Virus record (IMG/VR): IMGVR_UViG_3300023199_000016
Span: 1-59,811 of that record
Direction: 5' to 3' (one strand)
DNA: 59,811 nt
Origin: a virus
Lineage: Duplodnaviria > Caudoviricetes
Below, one piece after another: positions 9,750 to 27,639 of the stretch. Each line of letters opens with the position of its first letter. The stretch's first letter is position 1. A program made the position numbers and the translations under genes. Under the pieces are notes generated by a model. That model worked only from the letters and a program-made list of their open reading frames with translations, had not been told where the DNA came from and did no database searches.

Positions 9750-11069
9750 TCAATCGGTTGGGAACAACAAAATGCACCGCACGTTCATGTCCCGCGGGTC
9801 AATGATGTTGTCATGAATCGTCTTGACGATGTCGCTCTCTTCACCCACTGGCATATTGTAGATGATCGAACCCACGTCCTTCGTGCAAGCAGCGGACAAG
9901 TCGCCGTAGGCCGACTGCTCGAGCATCTCGAACACTTCGCCATCACCCTTTGCAATTTGTTCGGGTTTGCGCTTCTCGAAGATCGGGTCCCAGATGGCGA
10001 CCTTTCGACTGGGTCGCAATCGGTTCCACAACTCAAGGCACAATGAGTCTCGAAGTTCGTCGCTTCCCGGTCGCATCGCTGCACCAACAATGAGGACCGT
10101 TTCGTTCGCTTCGCATTCGAGAGCCTTGCGAACGATTTGCTCGATGTGCTCTTCACGTGAATCCCAACACGCTGCGATCAAATCCATGTCCTTGGCGAGA
10201 CGTCGTGCTGCACGTGCGTCCTTCGGCAAACACGCACCAGAATACGGTGGGCCCGGGTTCATGTGCGAGTGCGTAAGCAAGCGACCAAACGAGCCTTCAT
10301 CCATCGCGGTCGAAACGCATTCGCTTGGCGACACTCCTTCCCAATTACACAGCTCCGATTTGAGCAGGCTGTCCTCGATCACCTTCGCCCATTCGTTGAC
10401 GAAGCAAATCTTCGCGGTCATGAAAGAGTTGTGAATCATCTTCGCCCACTCGGCGACGACCCACGGTACGATATGCCGAGGAACCTTGCCACGATCGTTC
10501 AACACGACCGAATCAATTGTGCCCGACACCTCGAGCGTGTCCTCAATCGTCGCAGCACGTTGATGTCCAATGATGATCTTCGCTGGCATCATGGTGTCTT
10601 CGACGCCGAAGCCTGCACGCAGGAATACCGGATGATAGAACACGCGGCGGCTCAACCGACCCGCGTATCGTTCGAGGTACCCCGGGAAGAGCGTTGACAA
10701 GATCACAACCGGACAGTCGGGAGTGCTTCCGTCAAGAGCACCAACTTGAGTAAGCACTCGTTCAAGCACGTCATAGTTTGCTTCACCCGCGGCGGTCACG
10801 GGCGTCTGCACGCCGATGAAGATGCAGTCAGGAGCAATCGGATCGTTTGGGTCCGGTTCGGTACGTGCTTCAAACCGATTCGCCGCAAGCAATTGTTGAA
10901 GCATTGCATCGCCCGTTCGTTCAACGTGCGGTACGTGTCCTTCGTTCATCTGCTTGACCTTATATCGGTCAATGTCGATGCCCGTCACGCGGTGATGATT
11001 GGCAAGGGCCATCGCGAATGCGGCACCCATGTTGCCAAGTCCATAGACATGAATGTTCTTGAGACTCAT
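9750..11069 (-). CDS. UDP-glucose/GDP-mannose 6-dehydrogenase family (AlgD-like)
   Basis: GLGNMG Rossmann motif, IGVQTP, STLFPG, PVFLRAG, AKMIHNSFMTAKICFVNE, catalytic YSGACLPKD, GSDELRDS. Confidence 0.85.
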   Translation of the reverse strand: MSLKNIHVYGLGNMGAAFAMALANHHRVTGIDIDRYKVKQMNEGHVPHVERTGDAMLQQLLAANRFEARTEPDPNDPIAPDCIFIGVQTPVTAAGEANYDVLERVLTQVGALDGSTPDCPVVILSTLFPGYLERYAGRLSRRVFYHPVFLRAGFGVEDTMMPAKIIIGHQRAATIEDTLEVSGTIDSVVLNDRGKVPRHIVPWVVAEWAKMIHNSFMTAKICFVNEWAKVIEDSLLKSELCNWEGVSPSECVSTAMDEGSFGRLLTHSHMNPGPPYSGACLPKDARAARRLAKDMDLIAACWDSREEHIEQIVRKALECEANETVLIVGAAMRPGSDELRDSLCLELWNRLRPSRKVAIWDPIFEKRKPEQIAKGDGEVFEMLEQSAYGDLSAACTKDVGSIIYNMPVGEESDIVKTIHDNIIDPRDMNVRCILLFPTD

Positions 11070-11080
11070 TGAACGTTCCT

Positions 11081-11278
11081 TTACCTGTCTTTGGTTTGGT
11101 TTCGTCGGTCGCCTCTTACAAGTAAGACGACCGTAAAGATGACGGCGGCGCCTGTCCCATACGTGACTGCATTCGTTCGCCAGAACCAATCAAGCACCGT
11201 GCCGTCACCGGGCGCTTTGTTCAAGCAATACCAAACGAGACCTAAGAGTCCCAGCATAACGATTGCAGCCAGTCGCAT
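11081..11278 (-). CDS. small membrane protein
   Basis: Two hydrophobic segments; AAGGAG RBS. Confidence 0.55.
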   Translation of the reverse strand: MRLAAIVMLGLLGLVWYCLNKAPGDGTVLDWFWRTNAVTYGTGAAVIFTVVLLVRGDRRNQTKDR

Positions 11279-11281
11279 GAT

Positions 11282-12448
11282 TCACTCCTTTCCGATAATG
11301 ATCTCTTCCCACCACGCACGCAACGCGTCGAGCTCTTGATACATCTCACGCTCAGCGTACTCCGGTAGGTCAATGTTATCGTGCAACCGTTCGATAATGC
11401 GCATGTGGAGCTTCATGAGGTCGCACTTGCCACGTATCACGTCGGCCATTTCTTTGAGGTCGCGCATGATTGCATTCGCATGTGAATACAATCGAACCTC
11501 TTGCTTGAAGTCAGCCTTCAAGTCGTGCGGGTTCCGTTCTTGATGTACGATTGGCGTTGCGTATGCAATCGGACCGTTCATCATCGCCCGCACAACGTAC
11601 GATCGAAGAATGTCCGTTTCACGATGCGTACAACGGCACGGCATGTACATCAACGGGAAAGCATCATGATGCCACAACGTGCTTTGCGAGTTGAACGGTG
11701 CAAATTGATGCGGGCCCAACAAGAGTGGCGTGTTGAAGTATCGCCTGAACTCAAAGCCAGGCGGCATCATCAATCGTTGAAACGCATCGAGGTCCGGTTC
11801 GCCGTAGTGCAAGAACTGGAATATCAACACTCGTGCTTCATGCTGCTCAACACGCTCGTATGGCGGGCTGCATTCGTACAGCGGAACATTATGCGGGAAA
11901 CCGCGAGGCCAGTACTCAAGGCCGTGCTTCGCTGATGTCGCCCAGTATGTATTGGAATAGGCGTTTACCCAGCCCCTGTAGTCAGGGATGATGCGTGCAG
12001 AGCTGAATACATCAGCGGGTTGGTCTTCAATCGAATCACTGGGCGGCGGCGTCCAATAGCCTGGGCGTGTGTAACTTGAGATATTCGGAGGCCAGAATGA
12101 ATCGAACATCGGCTCATTGTCATCATCCGTTTCAAGAATCCAGTCTGCACGCTGTTGCATCGCGTACAGGTATGCGAAGTTCTTGCGACCGTAGTGACCG
12201 ACAGGTACACGTTCGTGCAACCTCGGCCACCGATTCTTCTGCTCAGCAAGTGAAAGATACTGAACGATCTTTCTTCCGGCTTCCGCGTTGTAGTGGTCCA
12301 TGAACGCATACCACTCATCATCGGGCGTTCGTTCATCGCCCGCAACGACAAGAGCGTAGTCATCGTCCCGAAACATTCCGATCTTCGCCCACTTGTGCAT
12401 TGCTTTCGTGGGCGCATTGATTGTTGTGACGCATACGATCAGTAGCAT
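11282..12448 (-). CDS. STELLO/DUF288 (GT75/RGP-related) protein; glycosyltransferase or NDP-sugar mutase
   Basis: VTTINAPT, VAGDERTP, GRKNFAYLYA, ETDDDN, WPRGFP, PDLDA, PFNSQSTLW, TDILRSY, QERNPHDL..DF..E. Confidence 0.8.
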   Translation of the reverse strand: MLLIVCVTTINAPTKAMHKWAKIGMFRDDDYALVVAGDERTPDDEWYAFMDHYNAEAGRKIVQYLSLAEQKNRWPRLHERVPVGHYGRKNFAYLYAMQQRADWILETDDDNEPMFDSFWPPNISSYTRPGYWTPPPSDSIEDQPADVFSSARIIPDYRGWVNAYSNTYWATSAKHGLEYWPRGFPHNVPLYECSPPYERVEQHEARVLIFQFLHYGEPDLDAFQRLMMPPGFEFRRYFNTPLLLGPHQFAPFNSQSTLWHHDAFPLMYMPCRCTHRETDILRSYVVRAMMNGPIAYATPIVHQERNPHDLKADFKQEVRLYSHANAIMRDLKEMADVIRGKCDLMKLHMRIIERLHDNIDLPEYAEREMYQELDALRAWWEEIIIGKE

Positions 12449-13683
12449 TTGACGTATCCTCCGAACTTCTGAACCCACGATAACGTATCGGGGTTTATGC
12501 CGGCATCCAATTCATGGATGCATTCGTGTAACAACGATAGGTTGGGTTCTGTCTTAGCGAGCACCTCCTCAATGAGTGTCAAGTAGTTTGCATTGGCGTA
12601 TTGAATCGCACGTGCCATATCGTTCTCGCACGTCGGATCAATTCGACACGGATGATTGAGCGGTAGCACCCGTTCGCGTGCGTCATACGTATGAATGTGG
12701 TTGGTATTGAACCGACCAAAGAAGAGCGGAACGTTCTTCGCAAGCGCGTGCAGTCGCACCTTCGTTGTATTGAATCCTTTCTTCTGCGGAATGCATGGAC
12801 CGGCGATGCCAGAACCAAGATGCTTCATGACGTCCTTGAAGTCCTTCAACACGCCAAGGAATACGTCAGGATACTCAACCCACAACGCGTGCTTATCCCA
12901 GCCCTTGCCACATATGCGTGTGTTGTCCGCTTCACCGGATTGAAGCCAAGGCAATAGAATATCGTCCCACGTCTCTGCACGATCACCTTTCAAGCGAGGC
13001 TCGCCGATGTGCGTGTTGGCTGCGAGTGTCACCGTGTACTTCTTCAACGTATCGGGCGCCTCCAGTCGTTGCATCCCGTACGTCGCCCAGTATTCGCAAC
13101 CGGCATATACGGCACGAATCTTGAAGCTCTTGCCTTGAATCCGTTTGGGAAAGATGTCGTCTTCCTGCGAGAGTACAGCAATCGGTCGAATGTTCGGCCA
13201 TATCGTTGCCATCTCCGAATCACGAACATACACCTTGGGATCAGTAACGATCAAGATACGTTTCAAGTCGAGCTTGTGCATTGCATATAAGCCCGGTGCG
13301 TTGTACCGAACACAGAAGTCACGTGTGCTTGCGAACGTTGGATTGTCGGGCCACGACCATGTAGGCGTAGCACCAGACACATTGACACAGCAGCAGGCGT
13401 CGAATTCACGTGCCGCTTCGACCATAGGCGACCAACGTTCTTCAAGTTCTGCACCGCTGATCTCTGCATCAACGTCCGTCAAGTCGGGCACGAACAATTC
13501 AACATCGTCACGTAAGTATTCACCTCCGATCGTATGCCCAAGATAGGCGATGTCATATTGACCGGAATCGGCCAATGCATTGATGATGCCCATCGTATCG
13601 AACTCAGCATTGGCACTCAAGCCTTTGCCTTCCGGTCGAAACGGCGAGCCCGTTCTTGCGACAATGATTCGTGGTTTGGACAT
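12439..13683 (-). CDS. GT-B DNA glycosyltransferase related to T4 beta-glucosyltransferase / phage arabinosyltransferases
   Basis: Colinear with T4 BGT motifs: ILIVTDPK (YYLFTDIR), IAVLSQ (IKVISQ), VYAGCEYW (EYFPIEQY), NTTKVRLHALAKNVPLF...YD (ITLRVWETMASDAVML..FD). Confidence 0.6.
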   Translation of the reverse strand: MSKPRIIVARTGSPFRPEGKGLSANAEFDTMGIINALADSGQYDIAYLGHTIGGEYLRDDVELFVPDLTDVDAEISGAELEERWSPMVEAAREFDACCCVNVSGATPTWSWPDNPTFASTRDFCVRYNAPGLYAMHKLDLKRILIVTDPKVYVRDSEMATIWPNIRPIAVLSQEDDIFPKRIQGKSFKIRAVYAGCEYWATYGMQRLEAPDTLKKYTVTLAANTHIGEPRLKGDRAETWDDILLPWLQSGEADNTRICGKGWDKHALWVEYPDVFLGVLKDFKDVMKHLGSGIAGPCIPQKKGFNTTKVRLHALAKNVPLFFGRFNTNHIHTYDARERVLPLNHPCRIDPTCENDMARAIQYANANYLTLIEEVLAKTEPNLSLLHECIHELDAGINPDTLSWVQKFGGYVKCY

Positions 13684-13686
13684 GAC

Positions 13687-13869
13687 TCACCTTATCGTGC
13701 ATGAGATGATCGTGCCAAGAGCGCCCGCAAGCAGCACGATAATCGAAAGCCACACCGACACGGTCGCATAGTGCGTTTGACCGAAGCACCATGCGATGCC
13801 GGCAACCAGTAAGAACACCAGCATCATCAAGACGCTGGCAACAAAGGAGTGCCAATGATTCTCCTTCAC
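13687..13869 (-). CDS. small 2-TM membrane protein
   Basis: Hydrophobic 60 aa from GTG overlapping the upstream stop; GGAGG RBS. Confidence 0.55.
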   Translation of the reverse strand: MKENHWHSFVASVLMMLVFLLVAGIAWCFGQTHYATVSVWLSIIVLLAGALGTIISCTIR

Positions 13870-14414
13870 GACGTTACCTCCTGTCCGTTGTAGTCGAGTT
13901 CGAGAATGCCGCCGTGCTCCGACACGCAATGTTGAACCGCCTGTGCGAACGTGTCGAGAATCGAGTTGCCTTTCTCGTCCAACGGTTCAAACCGATGATG
14001 TTCCCACTTCTGAAGAATCCACGCAGCCGGCACGCCGTGCTGAAGCAGGTAAGAGAACTGCATTGCAATCATGTCGATCAATGCTTGCATGATGCTGCCC
14101 TCTTTACTGATTTTTATAAAGACCTCGCCCGGCTGTGCGTTCTCATAGAAGCCGACCGTCACGTAGCCTTCGTAAGAGCCATGCACGATCTTGTGCGTCT
14201 TGCTCGATCGTGTCGCTTCCAGTCGAATGCGTGGGTTGCCTCGAGGCTGCACGAGCGGTCGAATGGCGGGCGGATCGACGGGCGTCACCCAACGCATCAC
14301 GATCGCCCGGGCATGTTGCTCTGTCATCTCTTCAGTCGCGGGATTGTCCTTGCTCATTCCGATCAAGTCGCTCACAGCTTTGTCGATGTCAATCGTCGTT
14401 GTGTTCTTTGCCAT
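13866..14414 (-). CDS. stand-alone TSCPD domain (class II ribonucleotide reductase C-terminal-like)
   Basis: GYVTVGFYENAQPGEVFIKISKEGS...SYLLQHGVP...RFEP...SILD. Confidence 0.75.
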   Translation of the reverse strand: MAKNTTTIDIDKAVSDLIGMSKDNPATEEMTEQHARAIVMRWVTPVDPPAIRPLVQPRGNPRIRLEATRSSKTHKIVHGSYEGYVTVGFYENAQPGEVFIKISKEGSIMQALIDMIAMQFSYLLQHGVPAAWILQKWEHHRFEPLDEKGNSILDTFAQAVQHCVSEHGGILELDYNGQEVTS

Positions 14415-14871
14415 CTTGCTTTCCTTTGCTTGTTCGTTTGTCTAACAACTTCTGCATCTCATCATCGTGGTCGGTATACCGACACATAGGCACGTTGATG
14501 TTGGAACTCTCTAAGAACTTGATGTTCTGCTTATTGTCCTCCAGCATTGATGTGTAAGCAATAACTTCAACGTCCAAGCCTTCAACCAAGTCGATGAACA
14601 AACGGTATCGCTTGGCCCACGGCCTGAATCGTAACAGGTGGTGCGGAACACCAAAGCCCAGTCCACGTCCGGTTTCCCAAACGTCTGGGCTCTCGTGCAA
14701 GTTGAGCACGAAGTGAACGGGTTTCCTACGCCACAAAGAGATGTTGAATCGGTCGTCTTCCATCGAAATCATCTTCGGGTTTGGATCGATGCCCGTTGAT
14801 TCGACGATCACTCGACGAACGATCTCACGTGCGGTTTCGTAGGAAGCCCGGAATAGCAACATGTCAATCAC
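14389..14871 (-). CDS. hypothetical protein
   Basis: 160 aa, coupled to its neighbours. Confidence 0.55.
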   Translation of the reverse strand: MIDMLLFRASYETAREIVRRVIVESTGIDPNPKMISMEDDRFNISLWRRKPVHFVLNLHESPDVWETGRGLGFGVPHHLLRFRPWAKRYRLFIDLVEGLDVEVIAYTSMLEDNKQNIKFLESSNINVPMCRYTDHDDEMQKLLDKRTSKGKQDGKEHNDD

Positions 14872-16399
14872 CAGTCCCTTGTGCGTAGAACTTCAACGCA
14901 TCGAAGCCGTGACGTATCGAATACCGTGCGATGTTCTTACCACACAGTGCTGGGTTCCAATTGTGTCGATCTTGTTTCGACCACAATTCACTAAAGCCGT
15001 CAAGCGATGCGTATTCCGGTCCGCCTACAAGTTCGGCCACCTCTTGTAGGCGAACGGGCTTCCAGTCAGTTTGTAACTCCGAGTCGTACACGTTACGTTC
15101 AAACACAATCCCATCGCCGTTCATTGCACCATCACGATCACGAAACACCCCACGTTGTGCAACGAGCAGGTTCTTGATGATCTTCACATCACTGAACGTT
15201 TCGTGGATAAACATGATCGGCCAGTGCTCAGTGTCAGTCGCAACGATTGCATTGTGTACAGTGACAAGATCGTTCAAGCCAACCCAACCTTCTTGCTGGT
15301 GCCCGCCTTTACCGACGAAATGAATCCCTTCGCTGGCATAGAACAAGTTGCGTGCGACACGGCCTTCACGAACGTTACCAACCGATAAGCCCCACTCGCC
15401 GGCCTGTGACGGGTCCTCGATCTCGTCAGTATCAAAGAACACATTGCTGAAGACACGTCCAGTCACGCCGTCTTTCGTTGGCTTAGCGTCACCGAAGTAC
15501 ATGCCCCAATTGCATTGGGTTGCGTTTGCTTGAAAGACATTGAACGAAATGTCACCGCCGCACCTCGCTTGAAGTCCGGTTGAAGAACCGCGCATAAAGA
15601 TATTGCCTCGTGCAACCAGCCCAGTGCAATACGTTGTGATGTATCCGTTGTGGTTGAACTTCGTTCGGTCAGACTCTTCGTACCAACCGTTGTGATCGAA
15701 GCAGTTCTCTTCAAGCAATAGGCCGTCAACTTCGGTCACAAAGATGCCTTGTGCGTGCCCTCCTGTTGAGAAGTTACGATACACATAACATCGACGCACG
15801 GTGAGATTCGTAAAGCGTACCTCTCCTTCGTACTCGTGCCTGTACGGATCAACGACGATGTCACAATAGTCGAAGCGACATCCTTCGATTAAGAGATTCT
15901 CGCCCCACGATAAGCATCGCACTCCGTTGCCCTTCGATGTTTCGCTGATGAAGTGCAGATTGACAAGCGCGATGTTACTGGTGTTGTCCCCAGTGCTTGA
16001 CCAAATCTGCACGCCGTCATCATCGCCAATGTTGAAGATCGGTCGAGGGCCGTCACCATAACTGGTGAGAACGATCGGATGCTCGGGTAAACCCGACACG
16101 AGGTTGTATTGGTCGTTCTTGATTGCACCAAGCGGTTCATTCCAAACGTCGCCCGACTTGAATAGCACCCAGTCTCCAGCGTCATCACGAAGATCTAGCC
16201 TCGCCCGATCAAACGTCGCATACGGATTGTTGATTGAACCGTCATTTGAGTCGTTGCCTGTTGAAGAGCTGACGTAGATGAGTCGTGCGTCTTCGCTTGG
16301 CTTCAAATCGGTCCAACCATTGACGACTTCAAGTGCGTACACTGCTTGCACGGCAAGTGTAACCACAAGAAGTGCCGTCACCTTTCCAATTCGTTTCAT
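14864..16399 (-). CDS. secreted right-handed parallel beta-helix (pectin lyase-like) protein
   Basis: Signal peptide MKRIGKVTALLVVTLAVQAVYA; IYVSSSTGNDSNDG...VLFKSGDVW; repeated N-rich beta-helix rungs. Confidence 0.7.
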   Translation of the reverse strand: MKRIGKVTALLVVTLAVQAVYALEVVNGWTDLKPSEDARLIYVSSSTGNDSNDGSINNPYATFDRARLDLRDDAGDWVLFKSGDVWNEPLGAIKNDQYNLVSGLPEHPIVLTSYGDGPRPIFNIGDDDGVQIWSSTGDNTSNIALVNLHFISETSKGNGVRCLSWGENLLIEGCRFDYCDIVVDPYRHEYEGEVRFTNLTVRRCYVYRNFSTGGHAQGIFVTEVDGLLLEENCFDHNGWYEESDRTKFNHNGYITTYCTGLVARGNIFMRGSSTGLQARCGGDISFNVFQANATQCNWGMYFGDAKPTKDGVTGRVFSNVFFDTDEIEDPSQAGEWGLSVGNVREGRVARNLFYASEGIHFVGKGGHQQEGWVGLNDLVTVHNAIVATDTEHWPIMFIHETFSDVKIIKNLLVAQRGVFRDRDGAMNGDGIVFERNVYDSELQTDWKPVRLQEVAELVGGPEYASLDGFSELWSKQDRHNWNPALCGKNIARYSIRHGFDALKFYAQGTGD

Positions 16400-17370: not shown

Positions 17371-18399
17371 CTACGCTCCTTTCACCATTGCATTGATCCA
17401 CTCAAACGTTTCTTCAAGCCCTTCACGAAGCGACCAAGCGGGCTCCCATCCAAGCTTATCACGAATCAATGCGTTGTGACTGTTTCTGCTCTGTACGCCT
17501 TGTGGTTTGGTCGTGTCATACGCTCGCACAAGGTTCGGCTTGCCCGCGATGTCTTGAATGATATCACACATTTCGTTGATCGTCACACACTCTTCAGAGC
17601 CGATGTTGACCGGACCGTGGAACGTTCTTGATCCCATCAAGCGAAGTACAGCATCGAGGCAGTCTTCAATGTACAAGAACGATCGACGTTGTTCACCGTC
17701 GCCCCAGACTTCAATCTCGCTCTTTCCGTTGACGCCCGCCTTTGCAATCTTACGGCACAATGCGGCGGGCGCCTTCTCTCGTCCTCCTTCATACGTTCCG
17801 AACGGACCAAAGATATTGTGGAAGCGTGCGATCTTGATCGTATAACCGAAGTCACGTGCGAACGCTTGACACAAACGTTCGCCCGTAAGCTTCTCCCAAC
17901 CGTAGTCGCTGTCAGGATCGGCGGGATACACAATGTCCTCAGGCAAAGAGACAACATCGTGGTGCGACTGAACTTCAGTGGGATACACGCAGGCCGACGA
18001 AGAGAACAACATCTTTGGTGCGAACTCCCAGTGGGCGGCTTGATAGCGCATCCAGTGTAAGACCGACAACGTGATGCTCAAGTTGTTGTGAAGGATCTCT
18101 GCATCGTGCCCTTGATCTTGAATGAATCCGATACCGCCCATGTCAGCAGCGAAGTGAAAGATGTGATCGTACGGACCGCGTTGCATCAATGCGTTGATCG
18201 TTTGATCTCGATTGCGAAGATCAACCGACAAGTACTTATCGCATATCTCTCGCGCATCAAACCAGTCAGGCTTGGGTTTGATGTCGATGACATCGACTTG
18301 ACTGAGTTGCTGCAAGGCGTGCAGCCGTCTTGCAAGATGTGAACCGATGAAACCCGCACCGCCTGTGATAAGAATCCTCTTCTTGCTTACCTTACTCAT
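17371..18399 (-). CDS. GDP-mannose 3',5'-epimerase (extended SDR)
   Basis: TGGAGFIGSH, AADMGGIGFIQ, SSACVYP (catalytic Cys), YGWEK, RFHNIFGPFGT, GGREKAPAA.CRK (catalytic Lys), WGDGEQ.RSF; near-colinear with plant GME. Confidence 0.88.
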   Translation of the reverse strand: MSKVSKKRILITGGAGFIGSHLARRLHALQQLSQVDVIDIKPKPDWFDAREICDKYLSVDLRNRDQTINALMQRGPYDHIFHFAADMGGIGFIQDQGHDAEILHNNLSITLSVLHWMRYQAAHWEFAPKMLFSSSACVYPTEVQSHHDVVSLPEDIVYPADPDSDYGWEKLTGERLCQAFARDFGYTIKIARFHNIFGPFGTYEGGREKAPAALCRKIAKAGVNGKSEIEVWGDGEQRRSFLYIEDCLDAVLRLMGSRTFHGPVNIGSEECVTINEMCDIIQDIAGKPNLVRAYDTTKPQGVQSRNSHNALIRDKLGWEPAWSLREGLEETFEWINAMVKGA

Positions 18400-21291: not shown

Positions 21292-21310
21292 TCTACTTTC
21301 CTTTCGCTTT

Positions 21311-21380
21311 GGGCAGTCTCATCAGACTGGCTTGCCCAAGGTCCAGTGACGTCCGATCAAATGATCGGGCGTTTCGACTT
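21311..21380 (-). ncRNA. type II hammerhead ribozyme, copy 1 (predicted cleavage 21348/21347)
   Basis: AGUC-GAAA-stem III (CGCCCGAUC/GAUCGGACG)-UC-stem I (ACUGG/CCAGU)-CUGAUGA-GACU; loop I GGGC pairs with 3' GCCC (pseudoknot). Confidence 0.9.
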
Positions 21381-21381
21381 G

Positions 21382-21642
21382 TCAGATATGATGCGTGAAG
21401 ATGCGACCGGGAATCTTATCCCACTCTTCAACGTCTTCAAGTTCGATTCCTGCATAGCCGTGTTCAATCGCAAAGCGTGCCACACGCACCGCTTCAGAAC
21501 GATCGGCCGCCGCAATGTCGATTTCATCGCCGGGCAAACCGTGTTCATCACGCGTGAATGCTGTCCAGCGTTTCAGATGATCACCGTTGTTGTGCTGATC
21601 GCCGTCGAAGACATCGGCAAACTTGTTCTCTTGCAGTCTCAT
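21382..21642 (-). CDS. hypothetical early protein (86 aa)
   Basis: ATG at 21642 with conserved RBS; flanked by ribozymes. Confidence 0.65.
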   Translation of the reverse strand: MRLQENKFADVFDGDQHNNGDHLKRWTAFTRDEHGLPGDEIDIAAADRSEAVRVARFAIEHGYAGIELEDVEEWDKIPGRIFTHHI

Positions 21643-21672
21643 TCTACTTTCCTTTCGTTTCGTTCGTTTCGC

Positions 21673-21745
21673 GGGCAGTCTCATCAGACTGGCTTGCCCA
21701 AGGTCCAGTGACGCCCGGTCGATTGATGACCGGACGTTTCGACTT
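21673..21745 (-). ncRNA. type II hammerhead ribozyme, copy 2 (predicted cleavage 21710/21709)
   Basis: Same core; stem III CGUCCGGUC/GACCGGGCG. Confidence 0.9.
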
Positions 21746-22256
21746 ACTCTTCAACGAAGTAGTCGGCGTAGTGTGCGATGCGATTGTTGTGATGCGTCTC
21801 TGCATCGGCCTTTTCTTGGCAGTAGTGCCCGTGGTGCAGGCCGCCGCATTCACGGTTCCACACGTGAGAGGTCCAACGAGCATTTGATGTCCAGCCTTCA
21901 CCGCGATCAATCAGAACCGAAACGCAACACCCGTTGGGTTCGGCAACGTGATCGAGGACGACTGCATCAGAACCGAATGCTCGTTGTGTATCCAACTCCA
22001 AGCGACTAAGTTCTTCGCCCGTCAACGGATTCTTAGAAGCAACGAAGCAAGTCGGACAATACATGTTGAGGCCGACTTCTTTGAACACATCAGCGTCACC
22101 CCATCGTCCACATCGTTCGCAGGCAACGAGATTCTCGTCTTCGATTGCATTCTCGACTGCATCACGCACTTCGTCGTGCGACCGTACGGTGGTTGTGTCC
22201 GGAATGTCCCATTCACAGATCATCGAGCCGTCATCTTCAGTCATGTAAACCTTCAT
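21744..22256 (-). CDS. hypothetical early protein with Zn finger (170 aa)
   Basis: ATG at 22256 with conserved RBS; CERCG...CPTC. Confidence 0.65.
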   Translation of the reverse strand: MKVYMTEDDGSMICEWDIPDTTTVRSHDEVRDAVENAIEDENLVACERCGRWGDADVFKEVGLNMYCPTCFVASKNPLTGEELSRLELDTQRAFGSDAVVLDHVAEPNGCCVSVLIDRGEGWTSNARWTSHVWNRECGGLHHGHYCQEKADAETHHNNRIAHYADYFVEE

Positions 22257-23508: not shown

Positions 23509-25506
23509 TCAAGCCGCACGCGGGAGGTGGAACACAGCATCATCGGACGATGCTTCACGCCACGTTGACGTTGCATACCCGCCTTCCACAGTGATCGGCA
23601 CTCTAAACCGATTCTCTTCACCGTGCAATTCAAGTGTGTCACGAATGTATTGACGTACTTCATTGCTCTCTCCTACATCGCGTGAACAGGCGAATAAGAA
23701 TTCATCGTGCACGCACGCCGCGACACGAATGCCAAGATCACGAATCATCGAGTTATATCGCGGTGCGATCTGAACAAGCTTTGCTTTCATCACATCAGCA
23801 GCACAAGATTGAATGATCGAATTGAATGCGCGATAAGCAAACATTATTGGGAGATGGCGTCGGCGACCGTACGCATTCTTGACCCAACCTCGTCCTTCGG
23901 CCAAAGCCACAGCACGATCACTCGTCGCTTTGATTCCTGGGAACGTTCTGTGATAGGTGTTGTACACCTTGCGTGCTCGACGTTCGCACAGTGATTGGAA
24001 GCGACGCGCTTTCTGGCTTGGTCGAATCTTTCCTGCTGCAATCTCTTCATCGACGACGTGCGAAAGGTCCTTCACCAAAGCAGGCTCGCCCGCGAGCATC
24101 GTAAGAACCTTATGCCGACCGCCACCATAGGCGATTGCAAAGTTGACGTTCTTAGCGGGCTTACGTGGTATGCCACACAAGTCAGCGACGAATTGATGAA
24201 AGTCCGTATCGGGATTCTCTGCATACGCCCTGATCGCTTTCTCATCGCGTATGTAGTGACAGATAAGTCGAAACTCGATTTGTGAGTAGTCGAATCGCAA
24301 GAAGCATTCTGAATCAACCGGATGAACCAGCTCTTTCGCCTCGGGCGATAACTGCTGTGCATTCGGGTTCTTACTTGACATTCGACCGGTGCGCACAGAT
24401 TGGTTGTACGTGGGATGCAAGATACCGTCGATGTTGAGCTCTTGATACGGACGAACAAAGAAACCAAGCAGAGTGTTGAGCTTACGCCACGAAAGCAACT
24501 TATCGAAGAACTCATACATCGAATCGTCGGACATCACCTCGGGCAATCGTTGATATGCGGCGAGAGCGTCCTTGTTGAACGACGGGTTGAGCAACGAATC
24601 ATCGCCCTCTTCCTCTGCCTTCTCGATTGAACCCTTCGTGTATTCAACGGCGGGCAGCCCGAAGTGGTTCATGATCACATCAGCGATGCTATCTGGTGTA
24701 CCCGGCGAGAACATTCGACCGACATGATTGTGCATCCATTCTTCAAGTTGCACCATACGTTGCAGTGTGGTGATCTCTTTGGCGACGAGTTCGGTTTCAT
24801 CAACTCTTAGGCCTTCGTTCTCGATGTCGTACAATACAGGCGTAAGAAGTATCTCGTTGTCCCACACCTCCTTGACTTCGCTTGGCCTTCGCTTGCACAT
24901 GTACTTCCACAGAAGCCGGTTCATCTGAACGTCCATGCATGCATAACGCCCAAGCAAGTCCGGTGGCGTATCGCCAAAGTCTTTGGTCTTCGCAGCCTCG
25001 AGCCAAGCGTGTAAGAGTTGCTCTTCACGAAGGTCCATGTCGAGCCAGTCTTCGCTCAAGTCTTTCAGCCCGTAGCCCTTGCCACCATATCCTCGGTCGC
25101 TGTCGATCAACTTTGCGAGAGTCATTGTGTCAACAAGACGCCCACCAAACTCTGCACCTTCATTCGTACAGAAGTGCGCATCAAACTTGACGTTGTGATT
25201 CACCCAATCATTATTGGCACCGACGGTCTCTTTCAACCAGCGATGCACCTGTTCAATCGGTAAGCATCGATGTTCGTAGTCCCAGTGGCGTATCGGTATG
25301 TAGTACGCATCCGGGTTATCATCGTGCGTTACTGCGATGCCGGCAATCTCATCGCCGTGCCATGGCGATATTGCCTTGAGCTTAGGGTCGCCGCTCGTCG
25401 TTTCAACGTCGAGGTATAGCTCGCGTGCACCACGCAAGTCCGGTAGTGGGTCGCCCGGCTCGAGCATCTTACATCGTTGACCGCTTTGTACTCGTAAGTC
25501 GATCAT
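23509..25506 (-). CDS. polA: DNA polymerase family A with 3'-5' exonuclease
   Basis: LDVETT, HNVKFD, YACMD exo motifs; RTGRMSS, FDYSQIEFR, AKNVNFAIAYG, VHDE. Confidence 0.95.
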   Translation of the reverse strand: MIDLRVQSGQRCKMLEPGDPLPDLRGARELYLDVETTSGDPKLKAISPWHGDEIAGIAVTHDDNPDAYYIPIRHWDYEHRCLPIEQVHRWLKETVGANNDWVNHNVKFDAHFCTNEGAEFGGRLVDTMTLAKLIDSDRGYGGKGYGLKDLSEDWLDMDLREEQLLHAWLEAAKTKDFGDTPPDLLGRYACMDVQMNRLLWKYMCKRRPSEVKEVWDNEILLTPVLYDIENEGLRVDETELVAKEITTLQRMVQLEEWMHNHVGRMFSPGTPDSIADVIMNHFGLPAVEYTKGSIEKAEEEGDDSLLNPSFNKDALAAYQRLPEVMSDDSMYEFFDKLLSWRKLNTLLGFFVRPYQELNIDGILHPTYNQSVRTGRMSSKNPNAQQLSPEAKELVHPVDSECFLRFDYSQIEFRLICHYIRDEKAIRAYAENPDTDFHQFVADLCGIPRKPAKNVNFAIAYGGGRHKVLTMLAGEPALVKDLSHVVDEEIAAGKIRPSQKARRFQSLCERRARKVYNTYHRTFPGIKATSDRAVALAEGRGWVKNAYGRRRHLPIMFAYRAFNSIIQSCAADVMKAKLVQIAPRYNSMIRDLGIRVAACVHDEFLFACSRDVGESNEVRQYIRDTLELHGEENRFRVPITVEGGYATSTWREASSDDAVFHLPRAA

Positions 25507-25508
25507 GT

Positions 25509-26015
25509 TTACTTGCTTGCTTTGCTTTCGTTGATAAGACCACCGGGCTGGAAGACCAGCCCTTTCTTTGATTCATACGCTTCAACATACGATTCATCGC
25601 CGATCACAAGACGCCAATGTGTCACACCCGCAAGCTCAAGAATCTGCAAGCCCCGATCGTCACTGTAGAAGTTTGACCAATACACTAAGTCGATTGCACC
25701 GCTGTTGACGATTGCAGTGGCGCATCTCCAGCACGGTGCGGTCGTGCAGTATAATGTTGCGTCTTTGATCGCTTGTGAATCGAGCTTGTTGATTGCGTTC
25801 TGCTCAGCGTGTGCACAACCACAGTCTTGCTTGATACCGGAGCAGAACGAGTGAGGCAGCTTTCGTGCCGGTCCGTTGTATCCGATTGAATGCACGGCGC
25901 TGAAGTCCTTGGGAAATACGATTGCACCACATGCTAGTCGCTTACATACTGAAAGCGCGGCAAGCTCATGGGCGAATCGAGCCATCACGATAAGCTTACG
26001 CATTGATCGTTGCAC
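25509..26015 (-). CDS. dCMP deaminase
   Basis: IGYNG, HAEQNA, APCWRCA; GTG start after GAAAGGAAAG. Confidence 0.9.
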   Translation of the reverse strand: MQRSMRKLIVMARFAHELAALSVCKRLACGAIVFPKDFSAVHSIGYNGPARKLPHSFCSGIKQDCGCAHAEQNAINKLDSQAIKDATLYCTTAPCWRCATAIVNSGAIDLVYWSNFYSDDRGLQILELAGVTHWRLVIGDESYVEAYESKKGLVFQPGGLINESKASK

Positions 26016-26595
26016 GGTGCTTTCCTTTCGTATTGAAGACAAGTCCAGTGCGCTCTTGTTCATGTCTTCGATCAAGATACTGATCGACGATGTCATTGGC
26101 AAACTGGCTTGGCCACCGTTCACCATTGGAAACTATCGGGTAGTCGACCTTGCAAACACCGGAGTCACTAAGTCGAATGAACTCATTGTTCACTTGCACG
26201 ATCTCAGTAAAGCGATACATCTCTTTACTTTGATCGCACTTGGCCCATTGATCCGCGAGGAAACGATTATGATTATCCCCTCCTCGCTCAGCGATACAAA
26301 GCACGACGAATCCGCAGTGCAGAGTTGTCCAAGCGTCGAGAGTTTGTAAGCCCGCGGCGCTAAGCGTCTCTTGATTCTGAAGTGCTTGACCGTATGCCTG
26401 ACGACTCAAGTAGAACCGATCCCACACGACGTTCGGATTCATCAACGGAATGTAGTCGGTATACTTATCAAACGACTCGGGTAACTTACTAAGAGGCAAC
26501 GGTATGTGCGACTCGCCCAGCTCGTTCAATCGTTTGACGAGTGCACGAACAAGAGTCGTCTTGCCAACAAGATCGGTTCCTTCAACGATAATCAT
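25996..26595 (-). CDS. deoxynucleoside monophosphate (thymidylate-kinase-like) kinase
   Basis: IIVEGTDLVGKTT P-loop; WDRFYLS. Confidence 0.85.
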   Translation of the reverse strand: MIIVEGTDLVGKTTLVRALVKRLNELGESHIPLPLSKLPESFDKYTDYIPLMNPNVVWDRFYLSRQAYGQALQNQETLSAAGLQTLDAWTTLHCGFVVLCIAERGGDNHNRFLADQWAKCDQSKEMYRFTEIVQVNNEFIRLSDSGVCKVDYPIVSNGERWPSQFANDIVDQYLDRRHEQERTGLVFNTKGKHRATINA

Positions 26596-26598
26596 GAC

Positions 26599-27639
26599 TT
26601 AGTCCTTTGCAATCTGAATGTCGTGAGCCGCTTTCAATGCGGGTGAGAACGGATTGAACGGTTCATTAGGGAACCAACGCGTGCGTACGCATCGAACAAG
26701 ATCGGACATCAACGAACCGTGACCGCACATCGCATCGATCATATCATCGGATACACGATCTCGATTCTCTCGCATACGCTCCTCGAGCTCCATTGCATTG
26801 TTGATCGCTTGAGAGATCGGTCGCCCGTGCCACTTCCAGTCTGTGATCAGGTGATCTTGAGTGGCTGGGTCAAAGATGTCAAGGTCGTCAGGCTTGAGAT
26901 TCCGATCGTACAAGTGCATGCTTCCAACGTTGTGCGTATACGTTCCGGGCATACACTTGATCGCCTCGGCAATCAATCGTTGTAAGCAGGTGAAAGCAAA
27001 GACGTCATATGGGAACCCCAACCAAATATCGTTGCTTCGCATGTAGGTGATCGCATGAAGTCGGTCGTTGCGTCGAATGAACTGCACACCAAGGGTGCAA
27101 GGTATGTCGCCTTTCGACCCAGTGATTGAATGTAGTAAGTCACCCGCATTCCACATGGTGATCACGCACTGTCTTGTATTAGGTTGACGTTGAAGCAACG
27201 TGATTGCGGCGCTGATCTGCGTGTTGAGCGGCAGGTCCCCAACCATCTGACCGTATTCTCTGTCACGCAAGTACGAACCAAGCGTACGAAGAAACACAGG
27301 ATCATTCGTCCATCGCCAACCGTATGCACCGTGTGCCACACCGAACTCAGCGAAGCGATCGTATTGTGGCGCATATTGATGTATCATCTCGATGTCACGG
27401 TCGCCTCGACAATACCAAAGGAACTCCGCCGCAGCATAGGCGACGCTCAACTTGCGCTTTGGGTGTAAGACGAAGGTTTGGGTCAGGTCACGCAGTTTGA
27501 ATACATGCCCAATCAATTCGCGGCACCCACCGTCGCGACTCTTCAGTCGATTGCCGTTGTGTGCGAGGTCGTTGTAAAGAACTGGCCACGTGAGTGAGAT
27601 CGAATTGCTTACAAGATCATGCGGTGTTTGGGGTGACAT
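26599..27639 (-). CDS. thymidylate synthase-family dCMP hydroxymethylase/hydroxylase
   Basis: DIPC181, MRSND, GFPYD212 (Asp at the E. coli TS Asn177 position, as in T4 gp42), SMHLY. Confidence 0.8.
   Translation of the reverse strand: MSPQTPHDLVSNSISLTWPVLYNDLAHNGNRLKSRDGGCRELIGHVFKLRDLTQTFVLHPKRKLSVAYAAAEFLWYCRGDRDIEMIHQYAPQYDRFAEFGVAHGAYGWRWTNDPVFLRTLGSYLRDREYGQMVGDLPLNTQISAAITLLQRQPNTRQCVITMWNAGDLLHSITGSKGDIPCTLGVQFIRRNDRLHAITYMRSNDIWLGFPYDVFAFTCLQRLIAEAIKCMPGTYTHNVGSMHLYDRNLKPDDLDIFDPATQDHLITDWKWHGRPISQAINNAMELEERMRENRDRVSDDMIDAMCGHGSLMSDLVRCVRTRWFPNEPFNPFSPALKAAHDIQIAKD

What the first reader, a model, noticed from the sequence alone, without database searches (positions are those of the whole stretch)
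9750..27639. Candidate new DNA hypermodification pathway: cytosine glycosylated with a phage-made GDP-L-sugar/uronate
Seen in sequence, all encoded by the phage: a dCMP-type TS homolog (26599-27639), a dNMP kinase, a MazG-like pyrophosphatase, its own PolA, a T4-BGT-like glycosyltransferase (12439-13683) and three sugar-nucleotide enzymes. These are GDP-mannose 3',5'-epimerase (17371-18399), a GT75/STELLO-like protein (11282-12448) and an AlgD-like 6-dehydrogenase (9750-11069). The GT, GT75 and dehydrogenase genes are nearly contiguous. Established: T4-type phages make 5hmdCMP (or 5-hydroxy-dCMP) and glycosylate it with glucose or arabinose; GME converts GDP-D-mannose to GDP-L-galactose/L-gulose; AlgD-type enzymes oxidise C6 to uronate. 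Inference: the DNA may carry L-galactosyl, L-gulosyl or uronosyl (negatively charged), possibly furanose, hydroxy(methyl)cytosine. I am not aware of such a base being described.
Basis: partly seen in the sequence, partly recalled or inferred. Interest (0 to 1): 0.88.

Follow-up and report, generated by a model that had tools for sequence, protein, structure and literature searches.

The report
Phage sugar cassette for hydroxymethylcytosine DNA
A complete 60-kb phage genome encodes the enzymes needed to make hydroxymethylcytosine, a glycosyltransferase shaped like the phage T4 DNA glucosyltransferase, and its own enzymes for an unusual L-sugar, so it probably decorates its DNA with a sugar not yet seen on DNA.

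Summary
The window is a whole phage genome (IMG/VR record, CheckV 100%).

- **TS homolog (26599-27639).** It carries the published T4 gp42 signature: Cys146, L143D, D169 kept, N177D. That predicts 5-hydroxymethyl-dCMP, not 5-hydroxy-dCMP.
- **GT (12439-13683).** It has no sequence match to any known family. Its model (pLDDT 91) aligns best with T4 beta-glucosyltransferase (Z 22-23, next hit 19.4).
- **Next gene.** It overlaps the GT by 10 nt and is a GT75/STELLO-type protein. Its only characterised relative is MtdL, a GDP-L-galactopyranose mutase.
- **Epimerase (17371-18399).** This is a true GDP-mannose 3,5-epimerase.
- **Recurrence.** Six other phage contigs carry a GT-B gene directly upstream of a GT75-like gene and an epimerase. 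All six encode a gp42-type TS homolog.

Best reading (about 0.5): 5hmC DNA is glycosylated with a furanose L-sugar made from host GDP-mannose, possibly oxidised to a uronate.

Caveats:
- The GT75-like protein lacks two residues that matter in MtdL.
- The substrate of the dehydrogenase is open.
- A GT2 gene sits in the tail module.
- Cyanophages carry the same sugar genes outside any DNA-modification context.
- Hexuronate-modified 5hmC is already reported in a preprint.

Verdict: a new variant of a known kind.

The parts
26599..27639 (-). Thymidylate-synthase homolog, predicted dCMP hydroxymethylase (5hmdCMP synthase)
   Evidence: PF00303 E 3e-27. Best solved relative is MilA, a CMP 5-hydroxymethylase, E 1e-26. 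Aligned with E. coli ThyA and T4 gp42 it shows C146, L143D, D169 kept and N177D.
25996..26595 (-). P-loop NMP-kinase-like protein, inferred kinase for the modified dCMP
   Evidence: Weak thymidylate-kinase hits only and no PDB hit. It sits next to the TS homolog here. L001 carries a 45% identical copy and L003 a 30% identical copy.
25509..26126 (-). dCMP deaminase (the true start probably lies near 26003)
   Evidence: PF00383 E 3e-13; phrog_174 E 8e-25.
27617..28852 (-). C5-cytosine-methylase-fold protein of a divergent phage clade; role unexplained
   Evidence: PF00145 E 2e-11, partial match. Alignment A6 shows motifs FAGGFT, GNPRC (GNPPC in the six relatives), ESV, RxRYF and TVRE. Homologs lie beside the sugar cassette in 6 of 66 viral loci.
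28856..29341 (-). MazG-like all-alpha NTP pyrophosphatase, inferred dCTP/dUTP clearing enzyme
   Evidence: PF01503 E 1.5e-9; phrog_671 E 4.5e-21; weak match to DR2231.
29358..30575 (-). ThyX flavin-dependent thymidylate synthase. It supplies dTMP and so frees the ThyA homolog for another role.
   Evidence: PF02511 E 1.3e-26; TIGR02170 E 7e-22, below cut-off.
23509..25506 (-). Family A DNA polymerase with 3'-5' exonuclease
   Evidence: PF00476 E 5.5e-43 and PF01612 E 5.8e-10.
17371..18399 (-). GDP-mannose 3,5-epimerase
   Evidence: E 7e-78 to 8sg0 and 4e-76 to 2c59; GDP-fucose synthase scores only E 6e-30. The Ser/Tyr/Lys triad, the Cys-Lys acid/base pair and both Arg residues named in review PMC8787198 are present in the alignment.
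12439..13683 (-). GT-B fold glycosyltransferase, closest in structure to T4 beta-glucosyltransferase; predicted DNA (5hmC) glycosyltransferase
   Evidence: Model pLDDT 91.4. VIA-align gives T4 BGT Z 22.2-23.1 over the whole BGT chain; next is BshA at 19.4. BFVD rank 2 is a 'DNA beta-glucosyltransferase', E 4.6e-15. Atlas feature hits to T4-Gluco-transf clusters score 0.94.
11282..12448 (-). GT75/STELLO-type protein, predicted GDP-L-sugar pyranose-furanose mutase
   Evidence: E 3e-15 to MtdL. The family profile scores E 2e-49 to MtdL, and only MtdL entries match. Its start overlaps the GT stop by 10 nt.
9750..11069 (-). Nucleotide-sugar 6-dehydrogenase; substrate not assignable
   Evidence: PF03721 E 2.8e-21 and PF00984 E 1.1e-9. 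TIGR03026 E 5.9e-48, below cut-off. AlgD E 7.7e-20 against UGDH E 1e-18, with the catalytic Cys kept in GACLPKD.
13866..14414 (-). Small TSCPD-domain protein just upstream of the GT; role unknown
   Evidence: PF12637 E 1.1e-8. A TSCPD protein also lies upstream of the GT homolog in L001.
44634..45683 (-). GT2-family glycosyltransferase in the tail module. It is not part of the cassette but is a possible alternative user of the sugars.
   Evidence: PF00535 E 6.5e-22 and PF02709 E 1.5e-6.

Best explanation
The phage builds glycosylated 5-hydroxymethylcytosine DNA in two stages.

Stage 1, before replication (T4 logic):
- The ThyA homolog converts dCMP to 5hm-dCMP.
- The adjacent P-loop kinase, with host NDP kinase, raises it to the triphosphate.
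- The MazG-like pyrophosphatase lowers the competing dCTP.
- dCMP deaminase and ThyX keep dTMP supplied.
- The phage PolA incorporates 5hmdC.

Stage 2, after replication:
- The BGT-fold GT-B enzyme transfers a sugar to the hydroxymethyl group.
- The phage makes the donor from host GDP-D-mannose. GME produces GDP-L-galactose (and some GDP-L-gulose).
- The GT75-type protein, translationally coupled to the GT, contracts the ring to GDP-L-galactofuranose, as MtdL does.
- The 6-dehydrogenase may oxidise C6 of the donor or of its precursor, giving a uronate.

Shown here: gene content, diagnostic residues, fold, gene order and recurrence in other phages.
Inferred: every enzymatic activity, the acceptor, the identity of the sugar and the position of the dehydrogenase in the pathway.
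For: 1. The TS homolog has the gp42-type signature. C146, D143, D169 and D177 are identical in state to T4 gp42 and differ from E. coli ThyA, which has L143 and N177. The meaning of these positions comes from PMC13326640, sections 24 and 28.
2. A separate ThyX is present, so the ThyA homolog is not needed for dTMP.
3. No Tet/JBP dioxygenase is encoded, so a post-replicative route to 5hmC is unlikely.
4. The GT model is confident (pLDDT 91.4, pTM 0.90). Its best structural match is T4 BGT: Z 22.2-23.1, 302-314 residues aligned, rmsd 3.3-3.7. The next match is 19.4, and T4 AGT scores about 18.
5. All Atlas feature-search and top structure hits without a bacterial GT4 label are viral.
6. GME membership is strong.
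7. The GT75-like protein keeps these MtdL residues: the DDD motif, Arg159, Asp195, Ser228-Gln229, Arg257 and Asp260.
8. GT and GT75-like genes overlap by 10 nt.
9. Recurrence: 66 viral loci hold a GT75-like gene. In 6 of them (L128, L136, L144, L146, L148, L151) a homologous ~440-aa protein lies directly upstream. Its low-confidence model is GT-B, with BGT tied at the top. An SDR epimerase lies directly downstream; in L148 and L151 it is a GME at 41-44% identity.
10. All 6 of these records encode a TS homolog with D143/D169/D177.
11. L001 has a 28% identical GT and keeps the order TS homolog, kinase, PolA, ligase, TSCPD, GT.
12. There is precedent for phage-made sugar donors for DNA: UDP-arabinose in RB69 and DLP3, and a proposed UDP-galactofuranose in RL38JI.
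Against: - No chemical data exist for this phage.
- The GT has no significant sequence similarity to BGT (hhalign probability 1.5%; no PF09198 hit). GT-B is a common fold with many acceptors.
- In the GT75-like protein and its whole family, MtdL D87 is replaced by Tyr and the Mn-binding H287 by Gln. S86 and N42 also differ. D87N/S abolished MtdL activity.
- Its nearest relatives are uncharacterised bacterial STELLO/DUF288 proteins.
- None of 80 bacterial loci has a true GME next door. The best SDR is 28.7% identical, and 18 of 80 loci have any SDR hit.
- GME homologs (42-46% identity) occur in 90 cyanomyophage records. GT75-like genes occur in 6 phage records. Phage Sf-CH8 holds both inside a heptose and glycosyltransferase island with no evident link to DNA.
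- A GT2 gene sits among the tail genes.
- A C5-methylase-fold gene is hard to explain if all C is replaced before replication.
- The dehydrogenase substrate is unknown.
- GME lies 3.7 kb from the GT, separated by ligase and a beta-helix gene.
Confidence: 0.5

Rival explanations
1. The DNA is glycosylated on 5hmC, but the GT75/STELLO-like protein is a second (GT-A type) glycosyltransferase rather than a mutase. The phage would then make a disaccharide. The BGT-like enzyme adds the first sugar. The GT75-like enzyme adds a second one from GDP-L-galactose, or from the uronate made by the dehydrogenase.
For: GT75 members also have glycosyl-transfer (self-glycosylating) activity, and MtdL has a GT-A fold. 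The window's protein lacks MtdL D87 and H287. Its nearest relatives are annotated STELLO glycosyltransferases of unknown activity. Sequential GTs giving di- and trisaccharides on 5hmC are known in phages. Two sugar-nucleotide enzymes and two GT-like proteins would match one to one.
Against: No GT75/STELLO protein has been shown to glycosylate anything but itself. The residues MtdL uses for the arginine-adduct mutase chemistry are invariant in the family: R159, D195, D260, R257 and S228-Q229. In the six other phages the cassette holds only one sugar-nucleotide enzyme, which fits a linear route of epimerase, mutase, then GT.
Confidence: 0.15
2. The sugar-nucleotide genes (GME, GT75-like, dehydrogenase) serve a glycan that is not on DNA. 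That could be glycosylation of virion or tail proteins by the GT2 in the tail module, or remodelling of the host surface. The DNA, if modified at all, would carry plain 5hmC or a host-derived sugar such as glucose.
For: A GT2 gene lies among the tail genes. GME occurs in 90 cyanomyophage records and GT75-like genes in 6 phage records, within sugar islands not known to act on DNA. L139, labelled a giant-virus contig, has GME next to a GT75-like gene with no TS homolog in its 9 kb. L001 has the GT homolog but no sugar genes in the 18 kb seen.
Against: The GT75-like gene overlaps the BGT-fold GT gene and lies 32 kb from the GT2. The cassette sits inside the replication and nucleotide-metabolism module. 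The pairing of a GT-B gene with a GT75-like gene and an epimerase recurs in 6 other phages, always with a gp42-type TS homolog and within their replication modules.
Confidence: 0.2
3. There is no hypermodification. The TS homolog makes a different product (for example 5-methyl-dCMP, or it hydroxymethylates CMP for a small molecule, as MilA does). The GT-B protein would then act on a non-DNA acceptor.
For: The best solved relative is MilA, which belongs to an antibiotic pathway. Residue signatures are correlative. GT-B enzymes act on many small molecules, and BshA, PimA and OtsA score Z 18-19.
Against: L143D argues against a methyl product. The gene sits among kinase, deaminase, MazG, ThyX and PolA genes in a lytic-type phage genome. 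The structural match to BGT stands about 3.5 Z units above other GT-B enzymes.
Confidence: 0.1

Closest known systems
T4-type glucosyl-5hmC system (gp42 dCMP hydroxymethylase, gp1 dNMP kinase, gp56 dCTPase, beta- and alpha-glucosyltransferases)
   Same: Both have a TS homolog with the same active-site signature, a neighbouring kinase, an all-alpha NTP pyrophosphatase and a dCMP deaminase. The transferase's predicted fold is closest to BGT. In T4 itself, b-gt lies directly next to gene 42.
   Different: The GT has no detectable sequence similarity to BGT. T4 uses host UDP-glucose and encodes no sugar-nucleotide enzymes. This phage is a 60-kb PolA phage with Pam3-like genes, not a Straboviridae member. 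It also carries ThyX and a C5-methylase-fold gene.
Arabinosyl-5-hydroxycytosine systems of RB69, DLP3 and HY126 (PMC13326640)
   Same: In both, a phage-encoded donor-sugar pathway is clustered with DNA glycosyltransferases and a TS homolog. In both, the sugar is delivered as a furanose.
   Different: Those TS homologs carry D169N and make 5hodCMP; this one keeps D169. Their donor is UDP-arabinofuranose, built from ribulose-5-phosphate by an isomerase, a kinase/uridylyltransferase and a phosphatase. None of those enzymes was found here.
A201A and hygromycin A sugar pathways (GDP-mannose 3,5-epimerase plus GT75 mutase MtdL or Hyg20)
   Same: Both pair a GME with a GT75-type protein. The only characterised bacterial GT75 enzymes make GDP-L-galactofuranose or GDP-L-fucofuranose. 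The DDD motif, R159, D195, S228-Q229, R257 and D260 are conserved.
   Different: The acceptor there is a nucleoside antibiotic, not DNA. The window's protein belongs to the STELLO/DUF288 branch and has Tyr for D87 and Gln for H287. That the A201A pathway's own epimerase is a GME is my recollection; I did not check it in a paper.
Phage MT / 5mYOX (TET) / GT gene clusters (Pyle et al. preprint 10.1101/2023.12.21.572611; Burke et al., PMC8256090, seen in a search listing only)
   Same: Both have a C5-methylase-fold gene near a DNA-GT candidate and a partner sugar epimerase. Those clusters yield hexose, HexNAc, heptose, Kdo and hexuronic acid on 5hmC, and one of their GTs shares the T4 beta-GT architecture.
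   Different: This genome has no Tet/JBP dioxygenase, so 5hmC would come from the nucleotide pool. That preprint does not contain the words GDP, mutase or furanose.

Membership tests
dCMP hydroxymethylase (T4 gp42 type, thymidylate synthase superfamily) | Thymidylate synthase fold or family | tested here: met
   PF00303 E 3.2e-27, 95.8 bits against a 24.3 cut-off.
dCMP hydroxymethylase (T4 gp42 type, thymidylate synthase superfamily) | Catalytic Cys146 and Asp in place of Asn177 (cytosine substrate) | tested here: met
   Alignments A2 and A5 and a motif scan give DIPCT ... MRSNDIWLGFPYD. The rule comes from PMC13326640, section 24.
dCMP hydroxymethylase (T4 gp42 type, thymidylate synthase superfamily) | Acidic residue in place of Leu143 (hydroxymethyl rather than methyl product) | tested here: met
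   Asp lies three residues before the catalytic Cys, as in T4 gp42 and MilA.
dCMP hydroxymethylase (T4 gp42 type, thymidylate synthase superfamily) | Formation of 5hm-dCMP from dCMP and methylene-THF | not testable with these tools
   This needs an enzyme assay or in vivo LC-MS.
5-hydroxy-dCMP synthase (RB69 gp48 type) | Asn in place of Asp169 | tested here: not met
   Asp169 is retained; it is an invariant column in A2 and A5. The rule comes from PMC13326640, section 28.
T4 beta-glucosyltransferase family (PF09198) | Sequence membership | tested here: not met
   No Pfam hit at E 0.01. hhalign of A1 against T4 BGT gives probability 1.5%.
T4 beta-glucosyltransferase family (PF09198) | GT-B two-Rossmann fold closest to BGT | tested here: met
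   VIA-align Z 22.2-23.1 to 1nzd, 1j39, 1qkj and 1c3j over chain residues 1-351; the next entry scores 19.4.
T4 beta-glucosyltransferase family (PF09198) | Catalytic base equivalent to BGT Asp100 | tested here: inconclusive
   An invariant T147-D148-P149-K150 follows strand 141-146. No residue-level superposition was available. That Asp100 is the BGT base is my recollection.
T4 beta-glucosyltransferase family (PF09198) | Transfer of a sugar to 5hmC in duplex DNA | not testable with these tools
   This needs a biochemical assay.
GDP-mannose 3,5-epimerase (GM35E) | Closer to GM35E than to GDP-fucose synthase or GalE | tested here: met
   E 7e-78 to 4e-76 for GM35E entries, against 6e-30 for GDP-L-fucose synthase and 1.4e-22 for a UDP-glucose 4-epimerase.
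GDP-mannose 3,5-epimerase (GM35E) | Ser/Tyr/Lys triad, Cys-Lys acid/base pair (Lys, not His) and acidifying Arg (not Lys) | tested here: met
   The alignment shows SSSAC, YgweK, GGREKAPAA and gvqsRN matching the GM35E chain. Residue roles come from PMC8787198. I mapped the motifs by eye.
GT75 NDP-pyranose mutase (MtdL, Hyg20, plant RGP/UAM) | Homology to a characterised GT75 mutase | tested here: met
   E 3.2e-15 to MtdL. The profile of 38 family members scores E 2.1e-49 over MtdL residues 7-323.
GT75 NDP-pyranose mutase (MtdL, Hyg20, plant RGP/UAM) | DDD motif, nucleophilic Arg159, Asp195, Asp260, Arg257 and Ser228-Gln229 | tested here: met
   These are invariant columns D108-D110, R182, D219/D221, S254-Q255, R276 and D279 in A3. 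They align to the MtdL residues. Their roles come from PMC9937993.
GT75 NDP-pyranose mutase (MtdL, Hyg20, plant RGP/UAM) | Mn-binding His287 and sugar-binding Asp87 | tested here: not met
   H287 aligns to an invariant Gln and D87 to an invariant Tyr in the family profile.
GT75 NDP-pyranose mutase (MtdL, Hyg20, plant RGP/UAM) | Pfam RGP (PF03214) or STELLO (PF03385) match | tested here: not met
   The window protein has no Pfam hit at E 0.01. Most of its relatives carry PF03385. The L151 homolog hits PF03214 at E 9e-7.
NDP-sugar 6-dehydrogenase (UDP-glucose/GDP-mannose dehydrogenase family) | N-terminal NAD domain, central domain and catalytic Cys | tested here: met
   PF03721 scores 76.4 bits and PF00984 38.7 bits, both above cut-off. 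Cys in GACLPKD aligns to AlgD GGSCLPKD.
NDP-sugar 6-dehydrogenase (UDP-glucose/GDP-mannose dehydrogenase family) | Assignment to GDP-mannose (AlgD) rather than a UDP-sugar | tested here: inconclusive
   AlgD E 7.7e-20 against UGDH E 9.6e-19. All NCBIfam equivalogs are far below cut-off. Relatives at 33-36% identity are named both ways by annotation pipelines.
Phage MT / 5mYOX / GT hypermodification cluster | TET/JBP-type 5-methylpyrimidine dioxygenase | tested here: not met
   PF12851 gives no match at E 0.1 in the whole 59,811-base genome.

The most novel reading that the evidence does not exclude
This phage, and a set of at least six others, use a three-gene cassette: a nucleotide-sugar epimerase, a GT75 pyranose-furanose mutase and a BGT-fold DNA glycosyltransferase. 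The cassette hangs furanose sugars on 5-hydroxymethylcytosine. In this phage the sugar would be L-galactofuranose or its 6-uronate, made from GDP-mannose. That would be the first L-sugar on DNA, the first GDP-sugar-dependent DNA glycosyltransferase, and the first GT75 or STELLO-branch enzyme with a role in nucleic-acid modification. It would also give the large uncharacterised bacterial STELLO/DUF288 family a testable activity.
Probability: 0.25. Interest if true: 0.85.

Novelty: new variant of a known kind. Interest (0 to 1): 0.66.

Why it matters
Glycosylated cytosines protect phage DNA from restriction enzymes and from some CRISPR systems. Each new sugar changes which host defences work and which laboratory enzymes can cut or read the DNA.

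If the prediction holds, the known DNA sugars would gain an L-configured furanose, possibly acidic, made from GDP-mannose. The known set so far is glucose, gentiobiose, arabinose, galactose, HexNAc, heptose, Kdo and HexA.

The finding also provides:
- a recurrent, searchable gene cassette for mining viromes;
- a first functional handle on STELLO/DUF288 proteins;
- a new DNA glycosyltransferase family with no sequence similarity to known ones.

Tried and rejected
**Searches that found nothing**
- Megablast of the whole region against deposited phages: no match.
- tblastn of the GT against deposited phages: no match. The same for the tail GT2.
- GT profile scan of GTDB genome contigs: none of 31 pattern matches was a relative.
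- The viral and metagenome scans found one relative each, L001 and L002. They gave identical tblastn numbers, so I took them to be the same element.

**Sequence and fold tests of the GT**
- Sequence-level tests of GT against BGT failed.
- Foldseek alone ranked OtsA and BshA-type GT-B enzymes first. BGT was not among its listed top 50. The BGT ranking rests on VIA-align.

**The second GT-B family (A4)**
- The A4 model was poor (pLDDT 58.9). Its GT-B and BGT match (Z 14.0-14.9, a tie with BshA) is only suggestive.
- hhalign of A1 against A4 was not significant (probability 7%, E 0.005). That the two GT families are homologous is my reading of shared motifs, not a result.

**Ideas tested and rejected or left unsupported**
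- Bacterial context gave no support for a GME-DUF288 link.
- I considered a UDP-arabinofuranose route (UGDH, decarboxylase, 4-epimerase, GT75 mutase). I rejected it for this phage because the only SDR is a clear GME. It remains possible for L146-type phages, whose SDR is MoeE5/GalE-like.
- I considered 5-hydroxycytosine and rejected it, because D169 is kept.
- I considered an MT plus TET route and rejected it, because no Tet_JBP is encoded.
- I considered phage-made GDP-mannose; no NTP_transferase is encoded.
- The kinase could not be tied to any solved kinase.
- There are no tRNA genes.

**Not used or not available**
- The look-up of encoding contigs was stated as closed and I did not call it. 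So the contigs of 14 of the 15 GT relatives, and of P0018 and P0159, could not be inspected.
Supplementary Fig. S11 of PMC13326640 (the RL38JI galactofuranose pathway) may bear on the precedent, and I did not see it.
- I did not use complex prediction, the search of protein representatives, the look-up of sequencing runs or read laying.

Full report
**What the window is**

The 59,811-base window is a complete virus record (IMG/VR, CheckV 100%, linear). Nearly all genes lie on the minus strand.

Read in the direction of transcription, the order is:
- Structural genes: portal, protease, capsid, tape measure and tail genes.
- Replication and nucleotide-metabolism module: SNF2 helicase, primase, ThyX, MazG-like pyrophosphatase, C5-methylase-fold protein, ThyA homolog, P-loop kinase, dCMP deaminase, PolA, several small ORFs, a DUF2786 protein, a DenV-like glycosylase, GME, ATP-dependent ligase, a beta-helix protein, a TSCPD protein, the GT, the GT75-like protein and the dehydrogenase.
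- Unannotated ORFs and the large terminase.

No deposited phage resembles the region at the DNA level.

**The cytosine base**

The ThyA homolog (26599-27639) is a clear thymidylate-synthase family member. Its best solved relative is the CMP hydroxymethylase MilA (E 1e-26).

A 2026 paper, of which I read sections 24, 27, 28 and 29 (PMC13326640), gives residue diagnostics in E. coli ThyA numbering:
- N177D marks a cytosine substrate.
- L143D/E marks a product other than methyl.
- D169N marks the flavin-dependent 5-hydroxy-dCMP synthases.

I aligned the window's protein with E. coli ThyA and T4 gp42. It has C146, D143, D169 and D177, the same states as gp42. The prediction is therefore 5-hydroxymethyl-dCMP, not 5-hydroxy-dCMP.

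Several other facts fit T4-type pre-replicative replacement:
- A separate ThyX and a dCMP deaminase cover dTMP supply.
- The neighbouring P-loop protein is only weakly kinase-like. It is conserved beside the TS homolog in two related phages.
- A MazG-like pyrophosphatase lies two genes upstream.
- The genome has no Tet/JBP dioxygenase.

**The transferase**

The 414-aa protein at 12439-13683 has no Pfam, PHROG, NCBIfam or PDB sequence match. It has 15 relatives among 5.8 billion clusters, at 32-44% identity.

An AlphaFold model built on those relatives is confident (pLDDT 91.4, pTM 0.90).
- Foldseek finds generic GT-B enzymes.
- VIA-align on Foldseek's best 1000 chains puts four T4 beta-glucosyltransferase entries first. 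They score Z 22.2-23.1, with 302-314 residues aligned over the whole BGT chain. BshA follows at 19.4 and T4 alpha-glucosyltransferase at about 18.
- In the viral model library, the second hit is annotated as a DNA beta-glucosyltransferase.
- The Atlas places the protein among virus-only clusters. T4-Gluco-transf clusters score 0.94 by features.
- Profile comparison with BGT is not significant.

This is a fold-level relative of BGT, not a family member.

**The sugar enzymes**

*GME (17371-18399).* It matches solved GDP-mannose 3,5-epimerases at E 7e-78, against 6e-30 for GDP-fucose synthase. It keeps the residues that a review names as distinguishing GM35E (PMC8787198, passages read).

*GT75-like protein (11282-12448).* Its start overlaps the GT stop codon by 10 nt.
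- It matches only MtdL in the PDB (E 3e-15).
- MtdL is the GT75 GDP-L-galactopyranose mutase of the A201A pathway (PMC9937993, passages read).
- Its nearest relatives are bacterial STELLO/DUF288 proteins: 3483 hits, with 30-37% identity among the 119 non-self proteins listed.
- A profile of 38 of these proteins matches MtdL at E 2e-49 over almost its full length.
- The DDD motif, Arg159, Asp195, Ser228-Gln229, Arg257 and Asp260 are conserved.
- Asp87 is Tyr and the Mn-binding His287 is Gln throughout the family.
- Mutase activity is therefore plausible but not secure.

*Dehydrogenase (9750-11069).* It is a nucleotide-sugar 6-dehydrogenase with its catalytic Cys. It cannot be assigned to GDP-mannose or to UDP-glucose.

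The phage encodes no sugar-1-phosphate nucleotidyltransferase. GDP-mannose would have to come from the host.

**Recurrence elsewhere**

*Bacteria.* In 80 bacterial loci with DUF288 genes, no true GME lies within 10 kb. 18 of 80 loci have an SDR hit, and the best is 28.7% identical.

*Viruses.* Among 66 viral loci with a GT75-like gene:
- Three have a GME (41-44% identity) directly adjacent: L139, L148 and L151.
- Six share a module: L128, L136, L144, L146, L148 and L151.
- In that module a ~440-aa protein lies directly upstream of the GT75-like gene. An SDR epimerase lies directly downstream in five of the six; in L136 the only SDR hit lies about 7 kb away on the other strand. An NTP pyrophosphatase and a C5-methylase-fold protein follow. 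All of this sits inside a PolA, SNF2 and recombination module.
- The ~440-aa proteins are 39-61% identical to each other.
- Their model is poor (pLDDT 59), but it aligns full-length to GT-B enzymes, with BGT tied at the top (Z 14.0-14.9).
- All six records encode a TS homolog with D143/D169/D177.
- In L146 the SDR is a MoeE5/GalE-like 4-epimerase rather than a GME. The cassette therefore seems to accept different epimerases.

*L001.* This phage has a 28% identical member of the window's own GT family. It keeps the order TS homolog, kinase, PolA, ligase, TSCPD, GT, with no sugar genes in the 18 kb seen.

**Against a DNA role**

- GME homologs are common in T4-like cyanophages (90 records).
- GT75-like genes occur in 6 phage records.
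- In phage Sf-CH8 both lie in a heptose and glycosyltransferase island.
- The window also has a GT2 glycosyltransferase among its tail genes. This gives a rival destination for the sugars.
- The C5-methylase-fold protein belongs to a distinct clade, with motifs FAGGFT, GNPPC, ESV and RxRYF. It travels with the cassette, and it is unexplained if cytosine is fully replaced before replication.

**Compared with what is known**

The logic is that of T4 glucosyl-5hmC and of the arabinosyl-5hoC phages, which also make their own donor sugar.

A preprint on MT/TET/GT clusters already reports hexuronic acid, Kdo, heptose and HexNAc on 5hmC, and epimerase-dependent GTs (abstract and passages read). It contains no mention of GDP, mutase or furanose.

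The 2026 paper proposes UDP-galactofuranose, made by a phage mutase, for Rhizobium phage RL38JI. I could not see its supplement.

My searches found no report of an L-sugar, a GDP-sugar donor or a GT75 enzyme in DNA modification. This covers the open-access library only.

**Verdict**

| Reading | Probability |
|---|---|
| 5hmC DNA glycosylated with a GME- and GT75-derived L-sugar, probably L-galactofuranose, perhaps as a uronate | about 0.5 |
| GT75-like protein is a second glycosyltransferase | 0.15 |
| Sugars go to a non-DNA glycan | 0.2 |
| No hypermodification | 0.1 |

This is a new variant of a known kind, with a concrete and cheap reconstitution test.

Noticed in passing
window 44634-45683 (-): A GT2-family glycosyltransferase (PF00535 E 6.5e-22, plus Glyco_transf_7C) lies between the tape-measure and distal tail genes. 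It may glycosylate virion proteins. It has no relative among deposited phages.
   Followed up: partly
window 27617-28852 (-); L151:13182-14423, L148:12706-13941, L146:12226-13431, L144:12291-13568, L128:12564-13775, L136:4681-6294: A distinct clade of C5-cytosine-methylase-fold proteins has motifs FAGGFT, GNPPC (GNPRC in the window), ESV and RxRYF. It travels with the GT-B, GT75-like and epimerase cassette in phages that should already replace C through a gp42-type enzyme. Its substrate and cofactor are unexplained.
   Followed up: partly
window 14864-16399 (-): A 511-aa right-handed beta-helix protein (pectate-lyase/NosD-like by Atlas, all relatives bacterial) is inserted between the ligase and the TSCPD/GT genes of the replication module. 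This is an odd place for a depolymerase-like protein.
   Followed up: partly
window 29358-30575 (-): The ThyX is 405 aa long. The Thy1 domain is matched mainly in residues 223-375, so about 200 N-terminal residues have no assigned family.
   Followed up: no
window 13866-14414 (-); L001:8272-8850: A small stand-alone TSCPD-domain protein lies just upstream of the GT, both here and in the distant relative L001.
   Followed up: no
window 295-9655: Ten ORFs of 103-754 aa were scanned and none has a Pfam hit. In PHROGs only the large terminase (2646-4910), and phrog_3678 for 5734-6609, were recognised.
   Followed up: no
L154 (Synechococcus phage Sf-CH8, PV340853.1 126176-137761): A T4-like cyanophage carries a GME homolog and a GT75-like gene in one island, together with heptose-pathway genes, cytidylyltransferases and several glycosyltransferases. 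The target of that island is not stated in the annotation.
   Followed up: partly
proteins P0018 and P0159: The closest relative of the GT75-like protein (36% identity) and a 33% identical relative of the dehydrogenase both list a longest contig of 59,577 nt, 6 contigs and the same sources. This suggests a second phage-sized element carries the pair. The contig could not be fetched.
   Followed up: no
L139 (IMG/VR giant-virus-labelled contig, 8,967 nt): 6095-7042 and 7858-8799: A GME (41% identity) lies next to a GT75-like gene, with no TS homolog in the contig fragment. The epimerase and GT75 pairing therefore also exists outside the DNA-modification context.
   Followed up: no
L003 (MW202657.1, Manatee Spring phage) 19932-22123: This related phage shares the primase, SNF2 and PolA module. 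It has a 'pyrimidine hmase' with the same D143/D169/D177 signature. That gene is followed by an unrelated 415-aa hypothetical protein that may be a different DNA-modifying enzyme.
   Followed up: no
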